Translations under genes and position numbers: made by a program
Notes under the pieces: generated by a model
Seen by the model: only the letters and a program-made list of their open reading frames with translations
Told to the model about the DNA's origin: nothing
Database searches by the model: none
Assembly: GCA_964568665.1 (NCBI GenBank)
Contig: CAZMPY010000026.1
Location: 62,106-126,105, forward strand
Length of the DNA: 64,000 bases
Direction of reading: 5' to 3'
Source of the DNA: an uncultured Thermoplasmata archaeon
GTDB lineage: Archaea; Thermoplasmatota; Thermoplasmata; UBA10834
Shown here: one piece after another, positions 5,588 through 60,178 of the stretch
Numbering within the stretch: the first letter of the stretch is position 1
How the letters are laid out: every line of letters starts with the position of its first letter

Positions 5588-6223
5588 TCAGAGCAGGTCG
5601 AGCGTCGGCCTCGCGATGAACATCACTCCGAAGCCGACCATGAGCGCGCCGCAGATTATGAACACGATCTCGTGGACCGCGGGCGTCCACATGTGCCTTG
5701 TCCTGAAGACCGCGAACGACGTGAACCAGTACCATGCGAGGTCGCAGCTCCAGTGTACGGCGGCGAACGCGACGACGACGATCGCCCCGAACTCCTGGGC
5801 CGTGAATATCAGCAGCGCGCCGACGGTGGCCCACCACAGGTAGAAGTACGGGTTCACCGCGGTCGTGAGCACGCCCGTGACGACCGTGCTCTTAGGAAGT
5901 GCGTCCCTTCCCTCGACGCCCATCTCCTTCCTCGCCCGTATCATCATGACCCCCATGACTGCCAGGAGCGCCCCGCCGACCAGGCCTATGCCGAGCGTGA
6001 CCTCCGGGCTCTTGAACAGCGACCCGATGCTGAGGACCATGAGGGCCATGAGCGGGAACTCGACCATGCCGTGGCCCAGGGCTATCTTCAGCCCGGCCTT
6101 CTCGTCCCTGTAGCCCCTGGCGACCGTGGCGGCGAAGACCGGCCCGGGCATCATCACTCCTGACAGGGAGATGACGAGGGCCGCGCCGAAGAATATCCAG
6201 ATGTTGTCGGTGACCGGGTCCAC
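5588..6223 (-). CDS. LysE family translocator
   Basis: SGVMMPGP, GHGMVE and NPYFYLWW motifs; about six TM helices. Confidence 0.85.
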   Translation of the reverse strand: MDPVTDNIWIFFGAALVISLSGVMMPGPVFAATVARGYRDEKAGLKIALGHGMVEFPLMALMVLSIGSLFKSPEVTLGIGLVGGALLAVMGVMMIRARKEMGVEGRDALPKSTVVTGVLTTAVNPYFYLWWATVGALLIFTAQEFGAIVVVAFAAVHWSCDLAWYWFTSFAVFRTRHMWTPAVHEIVFIICGALMVGFGVMFIARPTLDLL

Positions 6224-6300
6224 GGGCAGAAGTTACGGCCGCGCCGATATTTAACCCGTGCTCCTTCGTTCGGCTGAAATACGAGTACGGCATTATGCCT

Positions 6301-6370
6301 GCCACGTGATGAGTAGAGGGTCAGCTGAGGGCCGCGAGGCCCCGTGATGAACCCTATGAGTGCTGATGCG
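6301..6370 (+). ncRNA. Box C/D guide sRNA (sR-tMet-like)
   Basis: Box C GTGATGA 6306-6312; 12-nt guide; D' CTGA 6325-6328; GGGCC-GCGA-GGCCC hairpin 6329-6342; C' GTGATGA 6344-6350; 12-nt guide ACCCTATGAGTG; D CTGA 6363-6366. Confidence 0.92.
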
Positions 6371-6412
6371 CGGTCCGGATGCGGGCCGCCGCCAATGCAT
6401 GCATAAAGACCC

Positions 6413-6452
6413 CGTCGGGCGGCCATCCGACCGCCCGGCGTCCCTGTTTTTT
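6413..6452 (+). terminator. GC hairpin plus T-tract, likely ending the sRNA transcript (may also serve the convergent rubrerythrin gene)
   Basis: CGGGCGG/CCGCCCG stem (6416-6422/6431-6437) followed by TTTTTT at 6447-6452. Confidence 0.6.
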
Positions 6453-6991
6453 CAGATGTCGATGCTGCCGTAGTCCAGCTCGTCCGTGCGCTTGAAGTAA
6501 CCCTGCGGGTGCAGGCAGTTCGGACAGGTGTCAGGCGCCTTCTTGCCCCTGTGCAGGTAGCCGCAGTTCGTGCAGAACCAGACCTCCTCGTGCGCGGACT
6601 TGTAGAGCGTGCCGTCCCTGAGCCTCTTCAGGAGCAGCGCGTACCGCTTCGCGTGGTGCTGCTCGATACTGATCACATGCTCGAAGTACTTCGCCGCGGC
6701 CTCGTTCTTCTCGGCCTTCGCCTCCTTGGCGAACTTCGGGTACATCTTCGTCCACTCGAAGGTCTCGCCCTCGAGGGCGGCCTTCAGGTTCTCCTCGGTC
6801 GTGCCGACCATGCCCAGGAGCTTCATTATCATGGCCGCGTGCTCGTACTCGTTCTCGGCGGTCTCCAGGAAGATCTTCCCGATGGCCTGGTGCCCCTCCT
6901 TGTTGGCCGCCCCGGCCCACTTGACGTATTTCGCCCTGGCCTGCGCCTCCCCTGACAGTGCCTCCTTCAGGTTGTCCTCGGTCCTGCTCAT
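6452..6991 (-). CDS. rbr: Rubrerythrin
   Basis: Diiron helices (GEAQA, NEYEHA, GETFE, EQHH) plus C-terminal rubredoxin domain WFCTNCGY...CPNC. Confidence 0.95.
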   Translation of the reverse strand: MSRTEDNLKEALSGEAQARAKYVKWAGAANKEGHQAIGKIFLETAENEYEHAAMIMKLLGMVGTTEENLKAALEGETFEWTKMYPKFAKEAKAEKNEAAAKYFEHVISIEQHHAKRYALLLKRLRDGTLYKSAHEEVWFCTNCGYLHRGKKAPDTCPNCLHPQGYFKRTDELDYGSIDI

Positions 6992-9776: not shown

Positions 9777-11021
9777 ATGGAGCTCTCGATTCTCGTCTAT
9801 GTGCTGCTCCTGATCGCCTTCGCGAAGGCCCTCGGCGAGGCCGTCTCCCGGCTGAACCAGCCACCGATCGTGGGCGAGCTGCTCGCGGGCATCGTGCTCG
9901 GCCCGTTCGTGCTCGGGAAGATATTCAGCGACCTGCAGAGCATGTACTCCGACGAGTTCCTGTCGAACCTCGCGGACCTGGGCATACTGTTCCTGATGCT
10001 CTATGTCGGGCTCGAGTTCTCGCCGAAGAAGCTCGTGTCGTCCTCGTGGACGGGGGGCGTCATCGCCTTCACGGGCATCTCGCTCCCGATGGTCCTGGGG
10101 TTCTACCTCGGCGTGCTCTATGGCTACGACGGCCGGGCGCTCGTCTTCCTCGCGGTCGCCATGTCGGTCACGGCGCTCCCGGTCACCCTGCGGATACTCA
10201 AGGACCTCGAGGTGCTCGAGACGAAGACGAGCGATGTGATCATCAGCGCCGCCCTGATCACCGACCTCGCGCTGCTGTTCGTCATGGGCGTTCTGCTGGG
10301 CGGGGACCAGGGGAGCATGGGACCAGGGGAGCTGCTGTACCTCGCGGGGAGCTTCATCGGGTTCTTCGTCCTGGCGTTCGTCATAGGCAGGTACGCCGTG
10401 CCCCACATCTACCGGGTGCTCAGGTGGATGCGCACGGGCGAGGCGGCGTTCGCAGTCGCGATCGGCATCGCGATGGCCTTCGCGGTCCTCGCCGAGAGGT
10501 TGGGCCTTCCCGGGTTCGTCGGCGCGTTCATCGCCGGCCTGCTCCTGAGGGAGACTGGCACGGGCCTGAAGGTATGGACGCGGGTGGAGGACATCCTGTC
10601 CGGCATCACCCTCGGCTTCCTCGCACCGGTGTTCTTCGTGCTCATAGGCTTCAGCGTCGACTTCGACGCCGTCAGCCGGCTGCTCCCGCTCCTGGTCGCG
10701 GTCTCCATAGTCGCGATCGTGGGCAAGTTCGTCGGGTCATACGTGCCCGCGCGGCTCGTGCACCTCGGGAAGAACGAGTCGGCTGCGATCAGTTCCATGA
10801 TGATGGGCAAGGGCGCCATGGAGCTGGTCTTCGCGAGGCTCGCCCTCGAGATGGGCATCATAGACACGGACCTCTTCTCCGTCCTCGTGCTCATGGCCTT
10901 CATCTCGACGCTGCTCGCGCCCGTGCTGTTCAAGCTGTTCTTCAACAGGGCCGTCAGGCGCGGCGAGATCGAGGGTCCGTCCGGACGGCGCCCCGACCCG
11001 GACCTGCCGATCGCCCCCTAG
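9777..11021 (+). CDS. Cation:proton antiporter (CPA2/Na_H_Exchanger)
   Basis: QPPIVGELLAGIVLGP, TALPV, ALITD, GAFIAG, FFVLIG, GKFVG; about 12 TM helices. Confidence 0.9.
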   Translation: MELSILVYVLLLIAFAKALGEAVSRLNQPPIVGELLAGIVLGPFVLGKIFSDLQSMYSDEFLSNLADLGILFLMLYVGLEFSPKKLVSSSWTGGVIAFTGISLPMVLGFYLGVLYGYDGRALVFLAVAMSVTALPVTLRILKDLEVLETKTSDVIISAALITDLALLFVMGVLLGGDQGSMGPGELLYLAGSFIGFFVLAFVIGRYAVPHIYRVLRWMRTGEAAFAVAIGIAMAFAVLAERLGLPGFVGAFIAGLLLRETGTGLKVWTRVEDILSGITLGFLAPVFFVLIGFSVDFDAVSRLLPLLVAVSIVAIVGKFVGSYVPARLVHLGKNESAAISSMMMGKGAMELVFARLALEMGIIDTDLFSVLVLMAFISTLLAPVLFKLFFNRAVRRGEIEGPSGRRPDPDLPIAP

Positions 11022-41635: not shown

Positions 41636-41998
41636 TTGACCAAGATCCTCGTGGTGGATGATTCCGAGGCATTCAGGAAGGTTATGATAGAGCTGCTCGT
41701 GAGAGCAGGCTTCCATGATGTCGCCGAGGCGAAGGACTTCGACGAGGCCCTCGACAAGTTCAGACAGGAGAGGCCCAGGTTCACGTTCGTCGACATGATC
41801 CTGCCTGGGAAGTCCGGCGTGGACCTCACCAAGGCGCTGATCGCGATCGACCCCAACGCGACGATAATCGCCATGAGTTCGATCATCAACAAGACCATGA
41901 TCCGGCAGAGCCTGGACGCAGGTGCCAAGGACTTCCTCCTGAAGCCCACTAACACGATAGCCCTGAGCTCGGTCCTGGCGATGTGGAGTGATTGGTGA
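41636..41998 (+). CDS. Stand-alone response regulator receiver (CheY-like)
   Basis: ILVVDD, phospho-Asp FVDMILP..SG, AMSS, FLLKP. Confidence 0.92.
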   Translation: MTKILVVDDSEAFRKVMIELLVRAGFHDVAEAKDFDEALDKFRQERPRFTFVDMILPGKSGVDLTKALIAIDPNATIIAMSSIINKTMIRQSLDAGAKDFLLKPTNTIALSSVLAMWSDW

Positions 41999-42558
41999 TG
42001 AGCCTGTTCCATTTCAAGAGGCCAGGGGCGAGGAAGGACCACAAGGAGTCGGCCCTCGACATATCCCGCAAGTACTCGCTCAAACAGGGCCGGTCCTACG
42101 TGATCGAGGAGTCGCCCCCGGACATCAGCTTCGACGCGTTCGCCAACATCATCAACACGACGGACGAGAAGGGCGCGAAGAACGTCGGCCTGTGCATCAC
42201 GCGCCAGCACCCAGACCTGGTCCGGCAGAAGTACGGCATCGAGAAGACGCCGATATACTGGCTCGCGACCAAGACCGGCCAGGACATCATATCGCCCACG
42301 AACCTCGGCATACTAACGCACACGATCATCAGCTTCGTCCAGGACCACCAGAACGGGGTGGTCCTCCTCGACGGGCTCGAGTACCTGGTCTCGAACAACG
42401 ATTTCAACAAGGTCCTCAGGGTCATAGACCAGGTCAACGACCACATCTCCCAGAGCACCTCGAGGATGATCCTCCCGGTGGACCCGCGCGCGTTCGATCC
42501 GAAGGAGGTCGCCCTCCTCGAGCGGAACATGGAGAAGGTCCAGTTGTCCAAGGCGTAG
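41992..42558 (+). CDS. Stand-alone DUF835 (inactive KaiC/RecA-like) protein
   Basis: GLCITRQHP, IYWL, ISPTNL, VVLLDGLEYL..NNDF; coupled to the receiver gene. Confidence 0.85.
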   Translation: MVMSLFHFKRPGARKDHKESALDISRKYSLKQGRSYVIEESPPDISFDAFANIINTTDEKGAKNVGLCITRQHPDLVRQKYGIEKTPIYWLATKTGQDIISPTNLGILTHTIISFVQDHQNGVVLLDGLEYLVSNNDFNKVLRVIDQVNDHISQSTSRMILPVDPRAFDPKEVALLERNMEKVQLSKA

Positions 42559-55289: not shown

Positions 55290-58172
55290 ATGACCCTGGA
55301 TTTCTCTGCGATGGAGGCCAAGTGGCGCAAGGCCTGGTACGACGCGAAGATCAACGAGTCGGTCCCTGAGCCCGGGGCCAAGAAGTTCTTCATGATCTTC
55401 GCGTACCCCGGTGTGACGGGGTACATGCATGTTGGGCACATGCGGGGGTACACGATATCGGACGCGATCGTCCGGTACAAGATGATGACCGGGCACAGGG
55501 TACTGTTCCCCGTAGGCACCCACGCGACTGGCAACGGTGCCATCAGCTTCGCCAGGAAGGTCGAGCGGGGAGACCCGAGGACGGTCGACATCCTGAAGGC
55601 GAACGGATGCACCGACGAGACGATCGCGAAGCTCAAGGACCCCCTCGAGGTCATCAGGTTCTTCAACGAGGTCTATATCAACGACTACTGGAAGCGCTTC
55701 GGGTTCATGTCCGACTGGAGACGCTTCACGTGCACGATATGGCCGGACTACTCGAAGTTCATCGAATGGCAGATGTGCAAGCTGAAGTCGCTCGGCCTGC
55801 TCATCCAGAAGCCATACTATGCGCCCGCATGTCTCGAGCACGGCCCGGTGGCCATCGACGCGTCGGAGACGGACATATCCAAGGGCGGGAACGCCGAGGT
55901 GCTGGAGTACTCCCTGCTCAAGTTCGATTTCGAGGACGGCCGGAAGCTCGTTGCGGCGACGCTCAGGCCCGAGACGGTCTTCGGCCTGACGAACTTCTGG
56001 GTCAATCCGGATGTCGAGTATGTCGACGTCCAGGTAGGGGGCGAGACCTGGGTGGCGACCCGTGAGGCGGCTGAGAAGCTGAAGCTCCAGAAGGACGATG
56101 TCGTGGTCAAGGGCTCCGCGGACGGCGCGTCGCTCATGGGGAAGAGATGCAAGGCGCCCTTCACCGGGAAGATGATCCCCATATTCCCTTCACGACTGTG
56201 CGACCCGAACGTGGGCACAGGTCTGGTCATGAGCGTCCCGTCGGATGCGCCCTTCGACTGGGTCGCCCTCGTCGAGCTGAGGCGGGACCGGGAGATGCGG
56301 GCGAAGTTCGGGATCACGGACGAGATGATGGACGAGGCCATGCCCATCCCGATAATCGACACGCCTGGCTGGGGACCGCTCCCGGCGGTGGAGATCACGG
56401 AGAAGATGGGCATATCGTCGCTCAGCGACCCAAAGCTCGAGGAGGCCACGAAGGAGGTCTACAAGAGCGGCTTCCACAGGGGCGTCATGAACAAGGCCAC
56501 CGGGGACTTCGCCGGACAGCCGGTCGAGAAGGCCAAGGACGCGATGCGGGAGCGGATGCTGGCCAGCGGCCAGGCGCACCTGTTCTACGACCTGTCCGAG
56601 GAGGTCCTCTGCAGATGCGGGAACAAGGTCCTGATCAGGAAGATCCCGGATCAGTGGTTCATAGATTATGCAGACCCTGCTCTGACCGCGAGGTCGAAGG
56701 AGCATGCGCTCACCATGAAGATCCTGCCCAAGGAATACTACGAGAACATCCAGGGTGTGCTCGGCTGGTACCGGGAACGGGCATGCGTTCGTCTCGGGAA
56801 CTGGTTGGGGACCAGGTTTCCGTTCGACCAGAGATGGATCGTCGAAGCGATCGCCGATAGCACGCTCTATCCCGTGTATTATGTCATATCGAGGTACGCG
56901 AACGAAGGGGCGATCAGGCCCGAGGGCATGAACGAGGCCTTCTTCGATTTCGTCGTGCTCGGCAGGGGCGAGCCCGCGGAGGTCGCCCGCCAGACAGGGT
57001 TCGACGAAGGGGTCCTGAAGGAGATCCGGGCGGAGTTCGAGTACTGGTACCCGCTCGACATCAACCTCGGGGGCAAGGAGCACATGACGGTCCACTTCCC
57101 CGTGTTCCTCATGAACCATGTGGCCGTCCTCCGGCCCGAGCACTGGCCGAGGGGCATCATGGTCAACTGGTACATCACGTCGGTCGGGGGGAAGATATCA
57201 AAGTCCAAGGGCGGCGCGCAGCCCATCCCCGATGCGGCGGAGCGTTTCGGGGTCGACGCGATGCGTCTGTTCTATGCGCACACAGCCTCCCTGTTCGTCG
57301 ACGTCGCGTGGGAGGACGAGAAGGCCGAGACATACAGGGACAGGCTCGAACGCATCTGGTCACAGGTGTCCGAGCTGGAGGCCGTTACCGAGGAGGCCCC
57401 GTCCGACATCGACGGATGGCTGGAGGCGCGGATGAGCTCCCGTGTCGCGGGGCTCCACGAGCACATGGAGGACTACGACCTCAGGTCCTACTCCAATGAC
57501 GTCTACTTCGAGATGCCGCAGGACTTCAAGTGGTACCTGAAGCGCGGAGGGAAGAGCCGAGAGGCCGTCAGGAATGCCCTCGAGGTCTGGGTCCCGCTGA
57601 TGGCTCCCATCACGCCTCACCTTGCCGAGGAGATCTGGGAGCGGCTGGGCAAGAAGCCGTTCGCGTCCGTCGTCCAGCTGCCTGCGGGTTCGAGGTCGGA
57701 GCCAGTGATGGCGCAGGAGGCCAGGGAGGCGCTCATAGGGAGGCTCATCACGGATGTCACCGAGATAGTCAAGGTCACGGGGATGACCCCGAAGCGCCTG
57801 GTCCTGATGACGGCCCCGGCCTGGAAGCAGGACCTGCTCGCAGACGCGCTGGCCCAGACCGGAGCGAAGGTCGATATCTCCGCGCTGATCAGGTCCGCGA
57901 TGGCGAAGGTCAGCGGGCCCGAGGCGAAGAAGGAGGTCCCGGCGTTCGCCAAGGAGGTCGCGACAGATGTGTCGAGATTGACCGCCGAGAACAGGAAGGC
58001 CGCGTCGGTGCGCACGGACGAGCTGCAGACGCTCCGCCGGTCAGCAGGCTTCCTCCAAGGTCAGTTCGGGTGCGCCGTCGAGGTCTATGCGGCCGACGAC
58101 CCAGCGAGATACGACCCCAAGGCCAAGGCCAGGTTCGCGAAGCCAGGAAGGCCAGCCGTCTATATCGAATGA
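55290..58172 (+). CDS. leuS: Leucyl-tRNA synthetase (archaeal type)
   Basis: YPGVTGYMHVGH (HIGH), TLRPET and GTG.VMSVP (CP1 editing domain), KISKS (KMSKS), C-terminal A.PGRPA. Confidence 0.96.
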   Translation: MTLDFSAMEAKWRKAWYDAKINESVPEPGAKKFFMIFAYPGVTGYMHVGHMRGYTISDAIVRYKMMTGHRVLFPVGTHATGNGAISFARKVERGDPRTVDILKANGCTDETIAKLKDPLEVIRFFNEVYINDYWKRFGFMSDWRRFTCTIWPDYSKFIEWQMCKLKSLGLLIQKPYYAPACLEHGPVAIDASETDISKGGNAEVLEYSLLKFDFEDGRKLVAATLRPETVFGLTNFWVNPDVEYVDVQVGGETWVATREAAEKLKLQKDDVVVKGSADGASLMGKRCKAPFTGKMIPIFPSRLCDPNVGTGLVMSVPSDAPFDWVALVELRRDREMRAKFGITDEMMDEAMPIPIIDTPGWGPLPAVEITEKMGISSLSDPKLEEATKEVYKSGFHRGVMNKATGDFAGQPVEKAKDAMRERMLASGQAHLFYDLSEEVLCRCGNKVLIRKIPDQWFIDYADPALTARSKEHALTMKILPKEYYENIQGVLGWYRERACVRLGNWLGTRFPFDQRWIVEAIADSTLYPVYYVISRYANEGAIRPEGMNEAFFDFVVLGRGEPAEVARQTGFDEGVLKEIRAEFEYWYPLDINLGGKEHMTVHFPVFLMNHVAVLRPEHWPRGIMVNWYITSVGGKISKSKGGAQPIPDAAERFGVDAMRLFYAHTASLFVDVAWEDEKAETYRDRLERIWSQVSELEAVTEEAPSDIDGWLEARMSSRVAGLHEHMEDYDLRSYSNDVYFEMPQDFKWYLKRGGKSREAVRNALEVWVPLMAPITPHLAEEIWERLGKKPFASVVQLPAGSRSEPVMAQEAREALIGRLITDVTEIVKVTGMTPKRLVLMTAPAWKQDLLADALAQTGAKVDISALIRSAMAKVSGPEAKKEVPAFAKEVATDVSRLTAENRKAASVRTDELQTLRRSAGFLQGQFGCAVEVYAADDPARYDPKAKARFAKPGRPAVYIE

Positions 58173-58351: not shown

Positions 58352-60178
58352 ATGACCTCTCGCACCGTTCTAATCTCGATTGTCCTATTCGCGTTGATGC
58401 TGTGCTCCGTCCCTTCGTCGACCAGTGCACTGGCTGACGGCGATGGCGCGGTCTATCTGAACACTAAGATGGTCGCGACAGGCTACGACACGATCGAAGG
58501 ATCCGGGAGTTTCAGCGCGACGTTCACGGGCGAGGCCGCGGTCGGCCTCCGGGTCGCGGTCGCGGGTGTGTACGGCGGGGACGACGGCATCATATCGACG
58601 GACGAGCTCAGGATGTTCCTCGGGGACTTCTCGGAGGAGGTCGCGGGCAGGTCCTACTGGGGGGTCGTCATCGACTCTACGACAGACTTCAACGCATCGA
58701 GCGAGGACGACATACTCGTGGCGACCGAGGGGGTCCTGTATGTGAACCTCAGCTCCGCAGCCGATGTGGTCATAGGGATGGACTTCTCGGGCAGCGGTCC
58801 CGGGGGTTCGAGGCTGATCCAGCTGTCCCAGGGACCCGTCGACCTGCTCCTCGATTCCCTGAACGCCACCGTCGGGTTCGAGCACACGGGCACGCTCCAT
58901 GTCCGGGACCGGGTCGTGATGCTCGGGCTCGGGAGCTATACGACGCCGGACCTCTCGGACGGCAGGGTCCGGGAACTGAGGACGCCAGCGGGGAACATCG
59001 CGTGGTACTCGTTCGACGGCGATGTCGAGTCGAACCGGCTGGTCCAGGAGGAGACCCTGACCTACGAGAAGTTCAGCGTCATGGAGAACCAGCAGCTGTC
59101 GTTCGTGGTCGTGCTCATCGGATCCATACTGGTGCTCAGGATGCCCGCGACGAGGTTCGAGAAGTACAGGCTCCTGCATCCGAAGAAGTTCCGCAGGTTC
59201 GCGAAGCCACTGATATCGGTGCGCGCAAGCATGTACGCGATCGTGGCCTTTCTCTCGGTCATATACCTCCTTCCCTACCTGTTCGCCGTCGGGTCCCCGA
59301 ACACGATCCTCTATTCGTCCTACCTGTTCTTCATCGTCCCGGGCGCGGTCTTCATGGAGTACCTCATATCGAGGACGCTCTATGGCAGGGCCGCCCTGGA
59401 CATACCCGAGGAAACGGTGATCGAGGTGAAGCAGGCGCTGGTCGAGGAGAAGGCCCCGGAGGCGCTCTGCGAAATCTGCTTCAAGTCGATCGACACGCCC
59501 CTCGAGAAGATGCTCTGCCCCGGCTGCGGCACGCATCTGCACACCGCATGCGCGGAGCGGACGCAGTTGTGCCCCTCGTGCGAGGCGGTCCTCTTCCCGC
59601 ACAGGACCAGGTCGATCGAGTGTATGAAGTGCGGGGAGACATTCCTGTACACTGGCCCTGACGAACCGTACGCCGTGCAGTGCACGAGGTGCGGGGCGTT
59701 CCAGGAGGATGTCAAGGCCGGGGTCAACTACCTCGTGGTCGACCAGGACTCCAGGAACGCTTACATGATGATACGCGCGATGGGCATGTCCGGGCGTCCG
59801 GCCCTCGTGCTCACTGCGAACTTCCCAGGGAAGGTGAGGAGCGAGTACGACCTCGGCGAAGGTGTGGAGATCAAGTGGTTCTCGGACAGCTCCACGGACA
59901 TAGACAACATCAACCCGAAGGACCTGGACGGGGACGCGATGGAAATCGCATCGACCTTCCTGATGACGACCAAGGCATCGGGCCTGCTCCTGGACGGCGC
60001 GGACTTCCTGGCCAAGGAGAACGGCTTCGGCGCCGTCTACGCGTTCATAAGGCGGCTGAACGACCTCGCGGCGATCCATGGCGCGACGATCATCATGGCC
60101 CTCGACCGGGCCACGTTCTCGGAGGACGAGGTGACGAAGATCACCGACGAGTTCGACGAGATCCACGACTACACTTAG
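58352..60178 (+). CDS. Membrane protein: exported N-terminal domain, 3 TM, PHD/RING-like and Zn-ribbon fingers, C-terminal DUF835
   Basis: Signal peptide; TMs; CEIC..CPGC..H..C..CPSC; CMKC..CTRC; LVLTANFP..IKWF..INP..LLLDGADFL..NGF. Confidence 0.75.
   Translation: MTSRTVLISIVLFALMLCSVPSSTSALADGDGAVYLNTKMVATGYDTIEGSGSFSATFTGEAAVGLRVAVAGVYGGDDGIISTDELRMFLGDFSEEVAGRSYWGVVIDSTTDFNASSEDDILVATEGVLYVNLSSAADVVIGMDFSGSGPGGSRLIQLSQGPVDLLLDSLNATVGFEHTGTLHVRDRVVMLGLGSYTTPDLSDGRVRELRTPAGNIAWYSFDGDVESNRLVQEETLTYEKFSVMENQQLSFVVVLIGSILVLRMPATRFEKYRLLHPKKFRRFAKPLISVRASMYAIVAFLSVIYLLPYLFAVGSPNTILYSSYLFFIVPGAVFMEYLISRTLYGRAALDIPEETVIEVKQALVEEKAPEALCEICFKSIDTPLEKMLCPGCGTHLHTACAERTQLCPSCEAVLFPHRTRSIECMKCGETFLYTGPDEPYAVQCTRCGAFQEDVKAGVNYLVVDQDSRNAYMMIRAMGMSGRPALVLTANFPGKVRSEYDLGEGVEIKWFSDSSTDIDNINPKDLDGDAMEIASTFLMTTKASGLLLDGADFLAKENGFGAVYAFIRRLNDLAAIHGATIIMALDRATFSEDEVTKITDEFDEIHDYT

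What the first reader, a model, noticed from the sequence alone, without database searches (positions are those of the whole stretch)
6301..6452. Box C/D sRNA whose D guide fits the wobble C34 of intron-containing pre-tRNA-Met; D' guide target unknown
Seen: perfect C, D', C' and D boxes, two 12-nt guides, and a GC stem with a GNRA loop closing the C'/D' motif. The D guide ACCCUAUGAGUG is complementary to 5'-CACUCAUAGGGU-3', and the N+5 rule selects the C of the CAU anticodon (C32-U33-C34-A35-U36-A37). Known: H. volcanii sR-tMet guides Cm34 on elongator pre-tRNA-Met; I recall archaeal tRNA-Met having a 37/38 intron, which would supply the GGGU. The D' guide GUAGAGGGUCAG targets CUGACCCUCUAC (its 5th nt), which I cannot assign; it can also pair with the D guide (AGGGU/ACCCU). 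It would be missed by ORF-based annotation.
Basis: partly seen in the sequence, partly recalled or inferred. Interest (0 to 1): 0.65.

Follow-up and report, generated by a model that had tools for sequence, protein, structure and literature searches.

The report
Archaeal methylation-guide RNA for tRNA-Met
This is a real, conserved small guide RNA (box C/D sRNA) of an uncultured Thermoplasmata archaeon. It belongs to a known family that directs ribose methylation of the wobble base of tRNA-Met, and its second guide looks like the guides other Thermoplasmata use for tRNA-Trp.

Summary
Window 6306-6366 (+) reads C box, 12-nt guide, D' box, 5-bp stem with GCGA loop, C' box, 12-nt guide, D box. It is the only such motif in 64 kb, against 0 in 300 simulations.

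The same RNA sits at the same syntenic place in at least five related uncultured Thermoplasmata genomes. Boxes, D guide and 10 of 12 D' guide bases are identical there, the stem covaries and the flanks are unrelated. A conserved TATA-like box lies 25-37 nt upstream.

The D guide ACCCUAUGAGUG is the published signature of the stand-alone tRNA-Met C34 guides (H. volcanii sR-tMet, Pyrococcus sR41/sR49). It is identical to the H. walsbyi guide. Its target CACUCAUA|GGGU is exactly the exon-intron junction of H. volcanii pre-tRNA-Met. So this is a new member of a known family, in a lineage absent from the 2008 survey.

The D' guide is not an orphan. It is conserved and matches the position-39 guides in the tRNA-Trp introns of Picrophilus (9/10) and Thermoplasma (8/10), with chance below 0.001. 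It may therefore guide Cm39 of tRNA-Trp in trans.

Neither tRNA gene of this clade could be retrieved.

The parts
6273..6284 (+). TATA-like promoter element of the sRNA (CTGAAATACGAG; orthologues have ATAAAATACGAGG), 22-33 nt upstream of the C box
   Evidence: Conserved block in alignment A1 of six orthologous loci whose other flanking sequence is unrelated. The spacing fits an archaeal TATA box about 25 nt upstream of a start near 6300-6305. That it acts as a promoter is inferred.
6306..6312 (+). C box GUGAUGA
   Evidence: Sequence. Invariant in all intact orthologues.
6313..6324 (+). D' guide GUAGAGGGUCAG (12 nt). Predicted target is 5'-CUGACCCUCU(AC)-3', methylated at its 5th base.
   Evidence: The last 10 nt (AGAGGGUCAG) are identical in all orthologues and the first 2 vary. 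It matches the tRNA-Trp-intron D' guide of P. torridus at 9/10 and of Thermoplasma at 8/10. The chance of at least 9/10 to any of 26 guides is 6e-4 to 9e-4.
6325..6328 (+). D' box CUGA
   Evidence: Sequence. Invariant.
6329..6342 (+). 5-bp stem GGGCC/GGCCC closed by tetraloop GCGA. With C6343-G6344-U6345 as a 3-nt bulge it makes the C'/D' motif a K-turn rather than a K-loop.
   Evidence: All 40 cells are paired in 8 sequences. The third pair is U-A (5), C-G, G-C or G-U. Loops are GCGA, GCAA, GUAA, ACAA and GCUA. The K-turn geometry is inferred from sequence.
6344..6350 (+). C' box GUGAUGA
   Evidence: Sequence. Invariant, also in the second copy of L012.
6351..6362 (+). D guide ACCCUAUGAGUG (12 nt). 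It is complementary to 5'-CACUCAUA|GGGU-3' and the N+5 rule selects C34 of the CAU anticodon.
   Evidence: Identical in all orthologues. Identical to the H. walsbyi guide and 11/12 to H. volcanii sR-tMet. Matches the Rfam sR41 and sR-tMet consensus.
6363..6366 (+). D box CUGA
   Evidence: Sequence. Invariant.
6367..6452 (+). Non-conserved 3' trailer with hairpin CGGGCGG/CCGCCCG and a T6 run (6447-6452). It abuts the stop codon of the convergent rubrerythrin gene and is probably not part of the mature sRNA.
   Evidence: No similarity and no T run downstream of box D in the orthologues. One metatranscriptome contig ends at 6457.
6248..6255 (-). TATA-like box (TTAAATAT on the - strand) of the divergent LysE-family gene (5588-6223, -). 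This is context, not part of the sRNA.
   Evidence: Conserved TATTTAAC/TATATAAC block in A1, 25-32 nt upstream of the LysE start codon.

Best explanation
A stand-alone, independently transcribed archaeal box C/D sRNA of about 61-66 nt, from about 6301-6306 to 6366-6370 on the + strand. The organism is an uncultured Thermoplasmata archaeon.

Inferred from the family: L7Ae binds the terminal C/D K-turn and the internal C'/D' K-turn, and Nop5 and fibrillarin complete the sRNP.

The D guide pairs with positions 30-37 of elongator pre-tRNA-Met plus the first four intron bases (CACUCAUA|GGGU). Fibrillarin then 2'-O-methylates C34, so the reaction must precede splicing.

The D' guide is also functional. 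Its most likely substrate is the 3' splice junction of pre-tRNA-Trp (..ug|A38-C39-C40-C41-U42-C43-U44), giving Cm39.

Shown here: the motif, its conservation, the stem covariation, the conserved upstream TATA-like box, and the identity of the D guide with published tRNA-Met guides. Inferred: RNP assembly, both targets in this genome, and the methylations themselves.

The confidence of 0.8 refers to 'functional C/D sRNA of the tRNA-Met C34 family'. The tRNA-Trp assignment of D' I put at about 0.45-0.5.
For: - Canonical architecture with two 12-nt guides, unique in the window and absent from 300 simulations.
- Orthologues at the syntenic site (AspRS-NUDIX-Hjc-..-sRNA-LysE-NadA) in L012, L013, L014 (GCA_001800675.1), L015/L113 and L112/L114. 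Their AspRS is 82-84% identical to the window's. Boxes, D guide and 10/12 of the D' guide are identical while the flanks are unrelated.
- Stem fully paired, with four pair types at one position.
- Conserved TATA-like box at the right distance upstream.
- D guide equals the published tRNA-Met C34 guide signature, and H. volcanii pre-tRNA-Met carries the exact 12-mer across its exon-intron junction.
- Rfam below threshold: sR3 36.7 bits, sR41 25.6, sR-tMet 17.7.
- D' guide matches Picrophilus at 9/10 and Thermoplasma at 8/10 tRNA-Trp position-39 guides. The three best matches of 26 are the three members of the Thermoplasmatales, and chance is below 1e-3. N+5 then falls on position 39, a known Nm site.
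- Contigs of two metatranscriptomes cover the locus, with higher depth over the sRNA (42-58) than over its flanks (7) in X25.
Against: - No tRNA-Met or tRNA-Trp gene of this organism or clade was retrieved. The tRNA-Met junction scan of 185,579 species genomes gave only chance hits.
- Two scans for the D' target in a tRNA context found no archaeal tRNA-Trp.
- These patterns required exact Watson-Crick complements, set intron lengths and a standard T-loop. The tRNA-Met pattern also missed haloarchaea, which are known positives, so the negatives are weak. They are still negatives.
- No Rfam family reaches its gathering score.
- The RNA-library evidence comes from assembled contigs without strand. 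The 60-nt contig may only mark the segment shared between strains, and DNA carry-over cannot be excluded.
- No terminal stem is conserved.
Confidence: 0.8

Rival explanations
1. The D guide works as above, but the D' guide has no RNA target. Its conservation would reflect an intramolecular role, namely pairing of D' AGGGU with D-guide ACCCU (folding, or masking of the D guide), or a purely structural or spacing constraint.
For: D' guides of the 17 published tRNA-Met guides are unrelated to each other, and tRNA-targeting sRNAs often have one orphan guide (PMC7994747). In the second copy in L012 the D' guide has GGGC where the D guide has GCCC, against GGGU/ACCC in the first copy. That is one apparent co-change. 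The MFE fold pairs the two guides.
Against: Only 5 bp are involved. The fold is no more stable than shuffles (z = -1.4). The conserved block (10 nt) is longer than the complementary part. An orphan guide would not be expected to match Thermoplasmatales tRNA-Trp guides at 9/10. The single co-change lies in a stretch where 3 of 4 bases differ, so it is not significant.
Confidence: 0.12
2. The D' guide targets another part of the same tRNA-Met: the 3' strand of the anticodon stem (C38-U39-G40-A41-C42-C43-C44..). The sRNA would then clamp both exon ends around the intron.
For: The D' guide contains ..GGUCA.., which would mimic positions 27-31 and agrees with the C30-A31 deduced from the D guide. 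Dual guides often act on neighbouring sites of one RNA (PMC7994747).
Against: N+5 would fall on position 42, which to my knowledge is not a known Nm site. It needs C38 and an odd variable loop (CUCU.). Published homologues show no such complementarity. Not tested directly, because no tRNA-Met gene was recovered.
Confidence: 0.08
3. The D' guide targets a different RNA: tRNA-Gln(CUG) (C34-U35-G36-A37-C38-CCUCU, giving Cm38) or a site in 16S/23S rRNA.
For: The exact 10-mer CUGACCCUCU is the anticodon plus 3' stem of many tRNA-Gln(CUG) genes found in the metagenome scan. Most archaeal C/D guides target rRNA.
Against: The tRNA-Gln hits include the recurrent form that sits in arrays of 17-30 tRNA genes. 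I judged that form bacterial or phage-like from its G73 and encoded CCA. None of the hits could be tied to this clade. The one archaeal tRNA-Gln seen here, H. volcanii tRNA-Gln(UUG), has G37 rather than A37. Position 38 is not a known Nm site to my knowledge. No rRNA of the clade was available to search.
Confidence: 0.12
4. Not an RNA gene: a chance motif, or a conserved piece of the LysE or rubrerythrin untranslated or regulatory region.
For: No Rfam family reaches its gathering score. The transcript strand is unknown.
Against: There were 0 such motifs in 300 simulations. Conservation stops exactly at the box C and box D borders. The stem shows compensatory changes. The RNA is kept where rubrerythrin is replaced by other genes (L012-L014) or absent (L015).
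Confidence: 0.02

Closest known systems
Haloferax volcanii sR-tMet (Rfam RF02163) and its haloarchaeal homologues
   Same: A stand-alone box C/D sRNA. The D guide GCCCUAUGAGUG is 11/12 identical to this one, and the H. walsbyi guide ACCCUAUGAGUG is identical. It targets C34 of intron-containing elongator pre-tRNA-Met, pairing with exon plus the first intron bases, and has a long spacer between D' and C'.
   Different: Haloarchaeal boxes are degenerate (UGACGA, CCGA, UGCGGA) and they have a GGCC terminal stem. Their D' guides are unrelated. Here all four boxes are canonical, there is no conserved terminal stem, and the D'-C' spacer is a 5-bp stem with a tetraloop. Rfam score is 17.7 against a gathering score of 50.
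Pyrococcus tRNA-Met C34 guide (Rfam sR41, RF01126; called sR49 in PMC2584109)
   Same: Same D-guide core, CCCUAUGAG, directly before CUGA. Same predicted Cm34 on pre-tRNA-Met, and also stand-alone.
   Different: The Pyrococcus RNAs have a 4-nt D'-C' spacer (K-loop), a UGAAGA C' box, a guide ending in CG (C30-G31) and non-conserved D' guides. Score is 25.6 against 54.
Box C/D RNA inside the tRNA-Trp intron (Rfam sR3, RF01133), especially those of Picrophilus torridus and Thermoplasma
   Same: This is the best Rfam match (36.7 bits, gathering score 41). The D' guide AGAGGGUCAG compares with P. torridus AGAGGGUCAA and Thermoplasma ACAGGGUCAU, which guide Nm39 across the 3' splice junction.
   Different: Those RNAs lie inside the tRNA-Trp intron, and their D guide targets C34 of tRNA-Trp (..CUGGAAC.). 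This RNA is intergenic with its own promoter, and its D guide is the tRNA-Met one. PMC2584109 states that the tRNA-Trp guides are always intronic.
Human SNORD97 / SCARNA97
   Same: Box C/D guides for 2'-O-methylation of C34 of elongator tRNA-Met(CAT) (PMC6601510).
   Different: Eukaryotic and intron-encoded in protein genes. The archaeal guide depends on pairing with the pre-tRNA intron; nothing comparable was seen for the human guides in the passages read. Functional analogue only.

Membership tests
Archaeal box C/D sRNA (2'-O-methylation guide) | Terminal C box (RUGAUGA) and D box (CUGA), plus internal D' and C' boxes | tested here: met
   All four boxes are canonical. It is the only such arrangement in the window, against 0 in 300 simulations.
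Archaeal box C/D sRNA (2'-O-methylation guide) | Guide spacers of about 12 nt between C and D' and between C' and D | tested here: met
   Both are exactly 12 nt, in the window and in all orthologues.
Archaeal box C/D sRNA (2'-O-methylation guide) | Conservation as an RNA: boxes and guides kept, flanks free, structural covariation | tested here: met
   Found at six distinct orthologous loci. The stem covaries.
Archaeal box C/D sRNA (2'-O-methylation guide) | Accumulates as a discrete small RNA | tested here: inconclusive
   Metatranscriptome contigs cover it with locally raised depth, but they are unstranded assemblies.
Archaeal box C/D sRNA (2'-O-methylation guide) | Binds L7Ae and assembles with Nop5 and fibrillarin | not testable with these tools
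   Needs biochemistry. None of these proteins is encoded in the window.
tRNA-Met C34 guide family (sR-tMet / sR41 = sR49) | D guide RCCCUAUGAGNN directly upstream of box D, placing C34 of CAU at N+5 | tested here: met
   ACCCUAUGAGUG, identical to H. walsbyi and 10-11/12 to the other 16 published members.
tRNA-Met C34 guide family (sR-tMet / sR41 = sR49) | Stand-alone gene, not inside a tRNA intron | tested here: met
   Intergenic between the LysE and rubrerythrin genes. There is no tRNA nearby and it has its own conserved TATA-like box.
tRNA-Met C34 guide family (sR-tMet / sR41 = sR49) | Intron-containing elongator tRNA-Met in the same genome whose exon-intron junction is complementary to the guide | tested here: inconclusive
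   Not in the window. The genome-collection scan gave only chance hits, but it also missed the known haloarchaeal positives. The exact 12-mer is shown only for H. volcanii.
tRNA-Met C34 guide family (sR-tMet / sR41 = sR49) | Score at or above the Rfam gathering threshold | tested here: not met
   sR41 scores 25.6 against 54 and sR-tMet 17.7 against 50. The models are built on Pyrococcus and haloarchaea, and only the D-guide half aligns.
tRNA-Trp intron box C/D RNA (Rfam sR3) | Located in the intron of the tRNA-Trp gene | tested here: not met
   No tRNA exons flank it, and the flanks are unrelated between orthologues.
tRNA-Trp intron box C/D RNA (Rfam sR3) | D' guide complementary to the 3' splice junction and positions 38-44 of tRNA-Trp (Nm39) | tested here: inconclusive
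   9/10 identity to the P. torridus guide, but the clade's tRNA-Trp gene was not found.
tRNA-Trp intron box C/D RNA (Rfam sR3) | D guide complementary to the tRNA-Trp anticodon loop (C34 of CCA) | tested here: not met
   The D guide is the tRNA-Met guide. sR3 scores 36.7 against a gathering score of 41.

The most novel reading that the evidence does not exclude
In this uncultured Thermoplasmata clade one stand-alone sRNA serves two different intron-containing pre-tRNAs. Its D guide directs Cm34 of pre-tRNA-Met. Its D' guide has taken over, in trans, the position-39 methylation of tRNA-Trp, which in all archaea surveyed so far is guided from within the tRNA-Trp intron itself. That would imply that the tRNA-Trp intron of the clade has lost its own D' guide, or its whole C/D module.
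Probability: 0.45. Interest if true: 0.5.

Novelty: new member of a known kind. Interest (0 to 1): 0.33.

Why it matters
The finding adds a non-coding gene that ORF-based annotation of these abundant sediment and aquifer archaea misses. It extends the tRNA-Met wobble-methylation guide family to Thermoplasmatota, which was absent from the 2008 survey. It therefore predicts an intron-containing elongator tRNA-Met and Cm34 in the clade.

If the D' reading is right, it would be an example of a guide function moving from a tRNA intron to a trans-acting sRNA. It would also be one sRNA coordinating modification of two pre-tRNAs before splicing. That bears on how guide repertoires evolve, but it would not change the picture of how C/D sRNPs work.

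Tried and rejected
1. Rfam at gathering thresholds: nothing at the locus.
2. tRNA search of the window: only tRNA-Ser(CGA) and tRNA-Leu(UAG), and no rRNA.
3. Both target 12-mers with up to 2 mismatches in the window: chance level. The CGCTCATAGGGA site at 57730 is coding sequence of LeuRS.
4. Metagenome scan CTGACCCTCTN{7,8}GTTCRANTC: 94 loci, being tRNA-Gln(CUG) genes and random sites. None was an archaeal tRNA-Trp.
5. Genome scan for a tRNA-Trp with GRGGGYUCCAR, an 11-41 nt intron and CTGACCCTCT: 0 hits.
6. Genome scan CACTCATAGGGTN{27,57}GTTCRAWYC: 14 chance hits.
   In hindsight all three patterns should have allowed G-U wobble (YTG.., YR at positions 30-31), longer introns and deviant T-loops.
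7. Viral-contig scans: chance hits only.
8. Extending beyond the window ends: only short contigs, with no tRNA target.
9. A stand-alone guide for C34 of tRNA-Trp in the held loci: none.
10. The idea that the D' target lies in the tRNA-Met intron as the partner strand of GGGUCAG: rejected, because the flanking bases cannot form the bulge-helix-bulge needed for splicing.
11. The idea that the D' target is the T-stem plus acceptor 3' strand of a tRNA: rejected, because the variable guide bases would require tRNAs starting with U or C.
12. Terminal stem: weak in the window and absent in orthologues.
13. The papers of Joardar et al. 2011 and Clouet-d'Orval et al. 2001 are not in the library.

Full report
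**What is in the sequence.** On the + strand, window 6306-6366 reads GUGAUGA (C box), GUAGAGGGUCAG, CUGA (D'), GGGCC-GCGA-GGCCC, C, GUGAUGA (C'), ACCCUAUGAGUG, CUGA (D). Both guides are 12 nt, the spacing archaeal double-guide sRNAs need. A strict pattern for this architecture occurs once in the 64 kb on both strands and in none of 300 first-order Markov simulations. A relaxed pattern has a mean of 0.11 per simulation.

The stem directly follows D', and C6343-G6344-U6345 precede the GA of C'. The C'/D' motif therefore has the layout of a K-turn with a closed stem, not the K-loop of most archaeal sRNAs. That geometry is inferred from sequence.

**Context and organism.** The RNA lies in a 230-nt spacer between the start of a LysE-family gene (5588-6223, -) and the stop of a rubrerythrin gene (6452-6991, -). 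The window has 62.8% G+C and encodes ordinary archaeal housekeeping proteins. These include the thermosome, RFC, DnaG, FttA, a proteasome subunit, a wyosine-formation radical-SAM enzyme (Pfam Wyosine_form), AspRS, LeuRS and eIF6. It holds only tRNA-Ser(CGA) and tRNA-Leu(UAG), and no rRNA.

The same DNA is in sediment, groundwater and ice metagenomes. AspRS relatives with 81-87% identity are named Thermoplasmata or Thermoplasmatota archaeon, or Euryarchaeota archaeon RBG_13_57_23.

**Conservation.** The gene order AspRS-NUDIX-Hjc-(variable)-LysE-NadA is kept in relatives. The sRNA sits upstream of LysE in every one examined:
- L012, on a 1.86-Mb contig
- L013
- L014 (GCA_001800675.1)
- L015 and L113
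- L112 and L114

This holds whether or not rubrerythrin is present. All four boxes and the D guide are identical. The D' guide is NNAGAGGGUCAG, with only its two box-distal bases varying. The sequence immediately outside box C and box D is unrelated.

The stem is paired in all 40 cells of 8 sequences. Its third pair is U-A, C-G, G-C or G-U. Upstream, two blocks are conserved. ATAAAATACGAGG (window CTGAAATACGAG, 6273-6284) lies 22-33 nt before the C box, the right place for the sRNA's own TATA box. TATTTAAC (6248-6255) fits the TATA box of the divergent LysE gene.

Nothing downstream is conserved. The hairpin and T6 run at 6403-6452 exist only in the window's strain.

**Expression.** Two metatranscriptomes hold contigs of the locus or of close variants. 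In X25, one contig spans 6115-6457. Short contigs cover 6307-6366, 6302-6336 and 6321-6366 with loose ends that match other orthologues' flanks. Depth is 42-58 over the sRNA against about 7 beside it. In X19, a 780-nt contig spans 6217-6900.

These are unstranded assemblies. The 60-nt contig may simply be the segment shared by several strains. I count this as presence in RNA libraries, not as proof of a discrete RNA.

**What it is.** Rfam finds nothing at gathering thresholds. A permissive scan of the spacer gives sR3 (36.7 bits, gathering score 41), sR41 (25.6 against 54) and sR-tMet (17.7 against 50). The last two align through the D-guide half, GCCCUAUGAG.

The literature settles the family. 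Grosjean et al. 2008 (PMC2584109) report stand-alone sRNAs predicted to guide Cm34 of intron-containing pre-tRNA-Met. Their Additional file 5 shows 17 of them, from haloarchaea, Methanosarcinales, Pyrococcus, Thermococcus, Methanothermobacter and Methanocaldococcus. All have RCCCUAUGAGNN before box D and pair with exon plus intron, so methylation must precede splicing. The H. walsbyi guide is identical to the one here.

Their figure of H. volcanii pre-tRNA-Met reads C30-A31-C-U-C-A-U-A|g-g-g-u-u-u-c. A review attributes Cm34 of haloarchaeal tRNA-Met to sR-tMet, citing Joardar et al. 2011. No Thermoplasmata appear in the 2008 list. The RNA is therefore a new member of a known family.

**The second guide.** In the published family the D' guides are unrelated to one another. 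Here the 10 box-proximal bases are as conserved as the D guide, so the D' guide is under selection.

The best Rfam hit, sR3, matches the box C/D RNAs listed for tRNA-Trp introns. Aligned at the D' box, the guide here matches the intronic D' guide of Picrophilus torridus at 9 of 10 positions and those of Thermoplasma at 8 of 10. The three best of 26 published guides are the three from Thermoplasmatales. The chance of at least 9/10 is 6e-4 to 9e-4. The tRNA-Met family's D' guides match at 5/10 at most.

Those intronic guides pair with the last intron bases plus A38-C39-C40-C41.. and direct Nm39, given as Um39 or Cm39. By the same register the present guide would pair with ..cug|A38-C39-C40-C41-U42-C43-U44, and N+5 falls on C39. 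This is the reading I favour, at about 0.45-0.5. It would make the RNA a hybrid: a tRNA-Met guide and a trans-acting tRNA-Trp guide in one stand-alone sRNA. The 2008 survey found tRNA-Trp guides to be always intronic.

**What I could not show.** Neither tRNA gene of the clade was recovered.
- The one metagenome scan (D' target plus T-arm) returned 94 loci. They were tRNA-Gln(CUG) genes, whose anticodon and 3' stem happen to spell CUGACCCUCU, and random sites. One recurrent form lies in arrays of 17-30 tRNA genes, and I judged it bacterial or phage-like from its G73 and encoded CCA.
- A very specific tRNA-Trp pattern found nothing in the species-genome collection.
- The tRNA-Met junction pattern found 14 chance hits, 13 in bacterial MAGs and one non-tRNA site in an archaeal MAG.

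The last scan also failed to return any haloarchaeon. H. volcanii carries the exact 12-mer, but with a 75-nt intron and a TTCGGAG T-loop. The pattern was therefore too narrow and the negative carries little weight. All three patterns also demanded exact Watson-Crick complements, whereas the G and U bases of the guides may form wobble pairs. The P. torridus intron, for example, ends in uug.

The targets are absent from the window, from all orthologous loci and from the short extensions beyond the window ends.

**Rivals for D'.**
- An intramolecular role through AGGGU/ACCCU pairing. This is only 5 bp, the fold is not better than shuffles (z = -1.4), and the one apparent co-change in a paralogue is not significant.
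- The 3' strand of the tRNA-Met anticodon stem, where N+5 would fall on position 42.
- tRNA-Gln(CUG), giving Cm38. The one archaeal tRNA-Gln seen here, H. volcanii tRNA-Gln(UUG), has G37 rather than A37.
- An rRNA site, which I could not test.

A non-RNA explanation is excluded for practical purposes.

**Verdict.** The RNA is an ordinary but well-preserved member of the tRNA-Met C34 guide family in a lineage where it had not been listed. The open and moderately interesting point is the conserved D' guide with its tRNA-Trp-like sequence. An intron-aware tRNA scan of any complete genome of the clade would settle both targets within minutes.

Noticed in passing
L012 9095-9160 (- strand), about 900 nt from the intact orthologue at 10019-10089: A second, diverged copy of the sRNA: GUGACAA AAAGAGGGCUAU CUGA GGCCC-GCUA-GGGCC U GUGAUGA GCCCUAUGAGCG CUGA. 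The C box is degenerate (UGACAA) and the stem is kept by compensatory changes. The D guide now fits CGCUCAUA|GGGC and the D' guide differs in its 4 box-proximal bases. It is either a decaying duplicate or a guide for a second CAU tRNA. It lacks the conserved upstream TATA-like block.
   Followed up: partly
window 6403-6452: A GC-rich hairpin (CGGGCGG-CCAUCCGA-CCGCCCG) followed by T6, lying between the sRNA and the stop codon of the convergent rubrerythrin gene. It is present only in this strain (also in L002) and not in orthologues. It may terminate the sRNA primary transcript. From memory, and not checked here, H. volcanii sR-tMet is reported to keep a 3' extension of about 51 nt.
   Followed up: partly
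window 6340 and 6343; L002 3622-3692: Natural variants C6340T (turns a stem G-C into G-U) and C6343T (bulge base; T in several orthologues) occur in L002 and in the contigs of both metatranscriptomes. No variant touches a box or a guide.
   Followed up: yes
L033 19-3529, L022 1937-3522, L044 3684-11409, L085 112-5842: Metagenome contigs fetched by the D'-target scan carry dense arrays of 17-30 tRNA genes, and no Pfam hits in the neighbouring ORFs of L033. They are unrelated to the archaeon. The arrays look like those of phages or some bacteria.
   Followed up: partly
L012 10090-10098 and 10010-10018; L112 7986-8074: In two orthologues the bases just before the C box (AUCAC) and just after the D box (AUCAC/AUCAU) are direct repeats, and both are complementary to the GUGAU of the boxes. 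Their meaning is unknown, and they are not seen in the window.
   Followed up: no
window 6154-6426 (-) and 5892-6305 (-): Long ORFs (90 and 137 aa) run across the sRNA and promoter region on the opposite strand. In this 63% G+C genome they are most likely spurious, but a gene caller could annotate them over the RNA gene.
   Followed up: no
window 41992-42558 (+) and 58352-60178 (+): Two proteins with the DUF835 domain, one short and one of 608 aa, lie in a neighbourhood of translation and proteasome genes. Their function is unknown.
   Followed up: no
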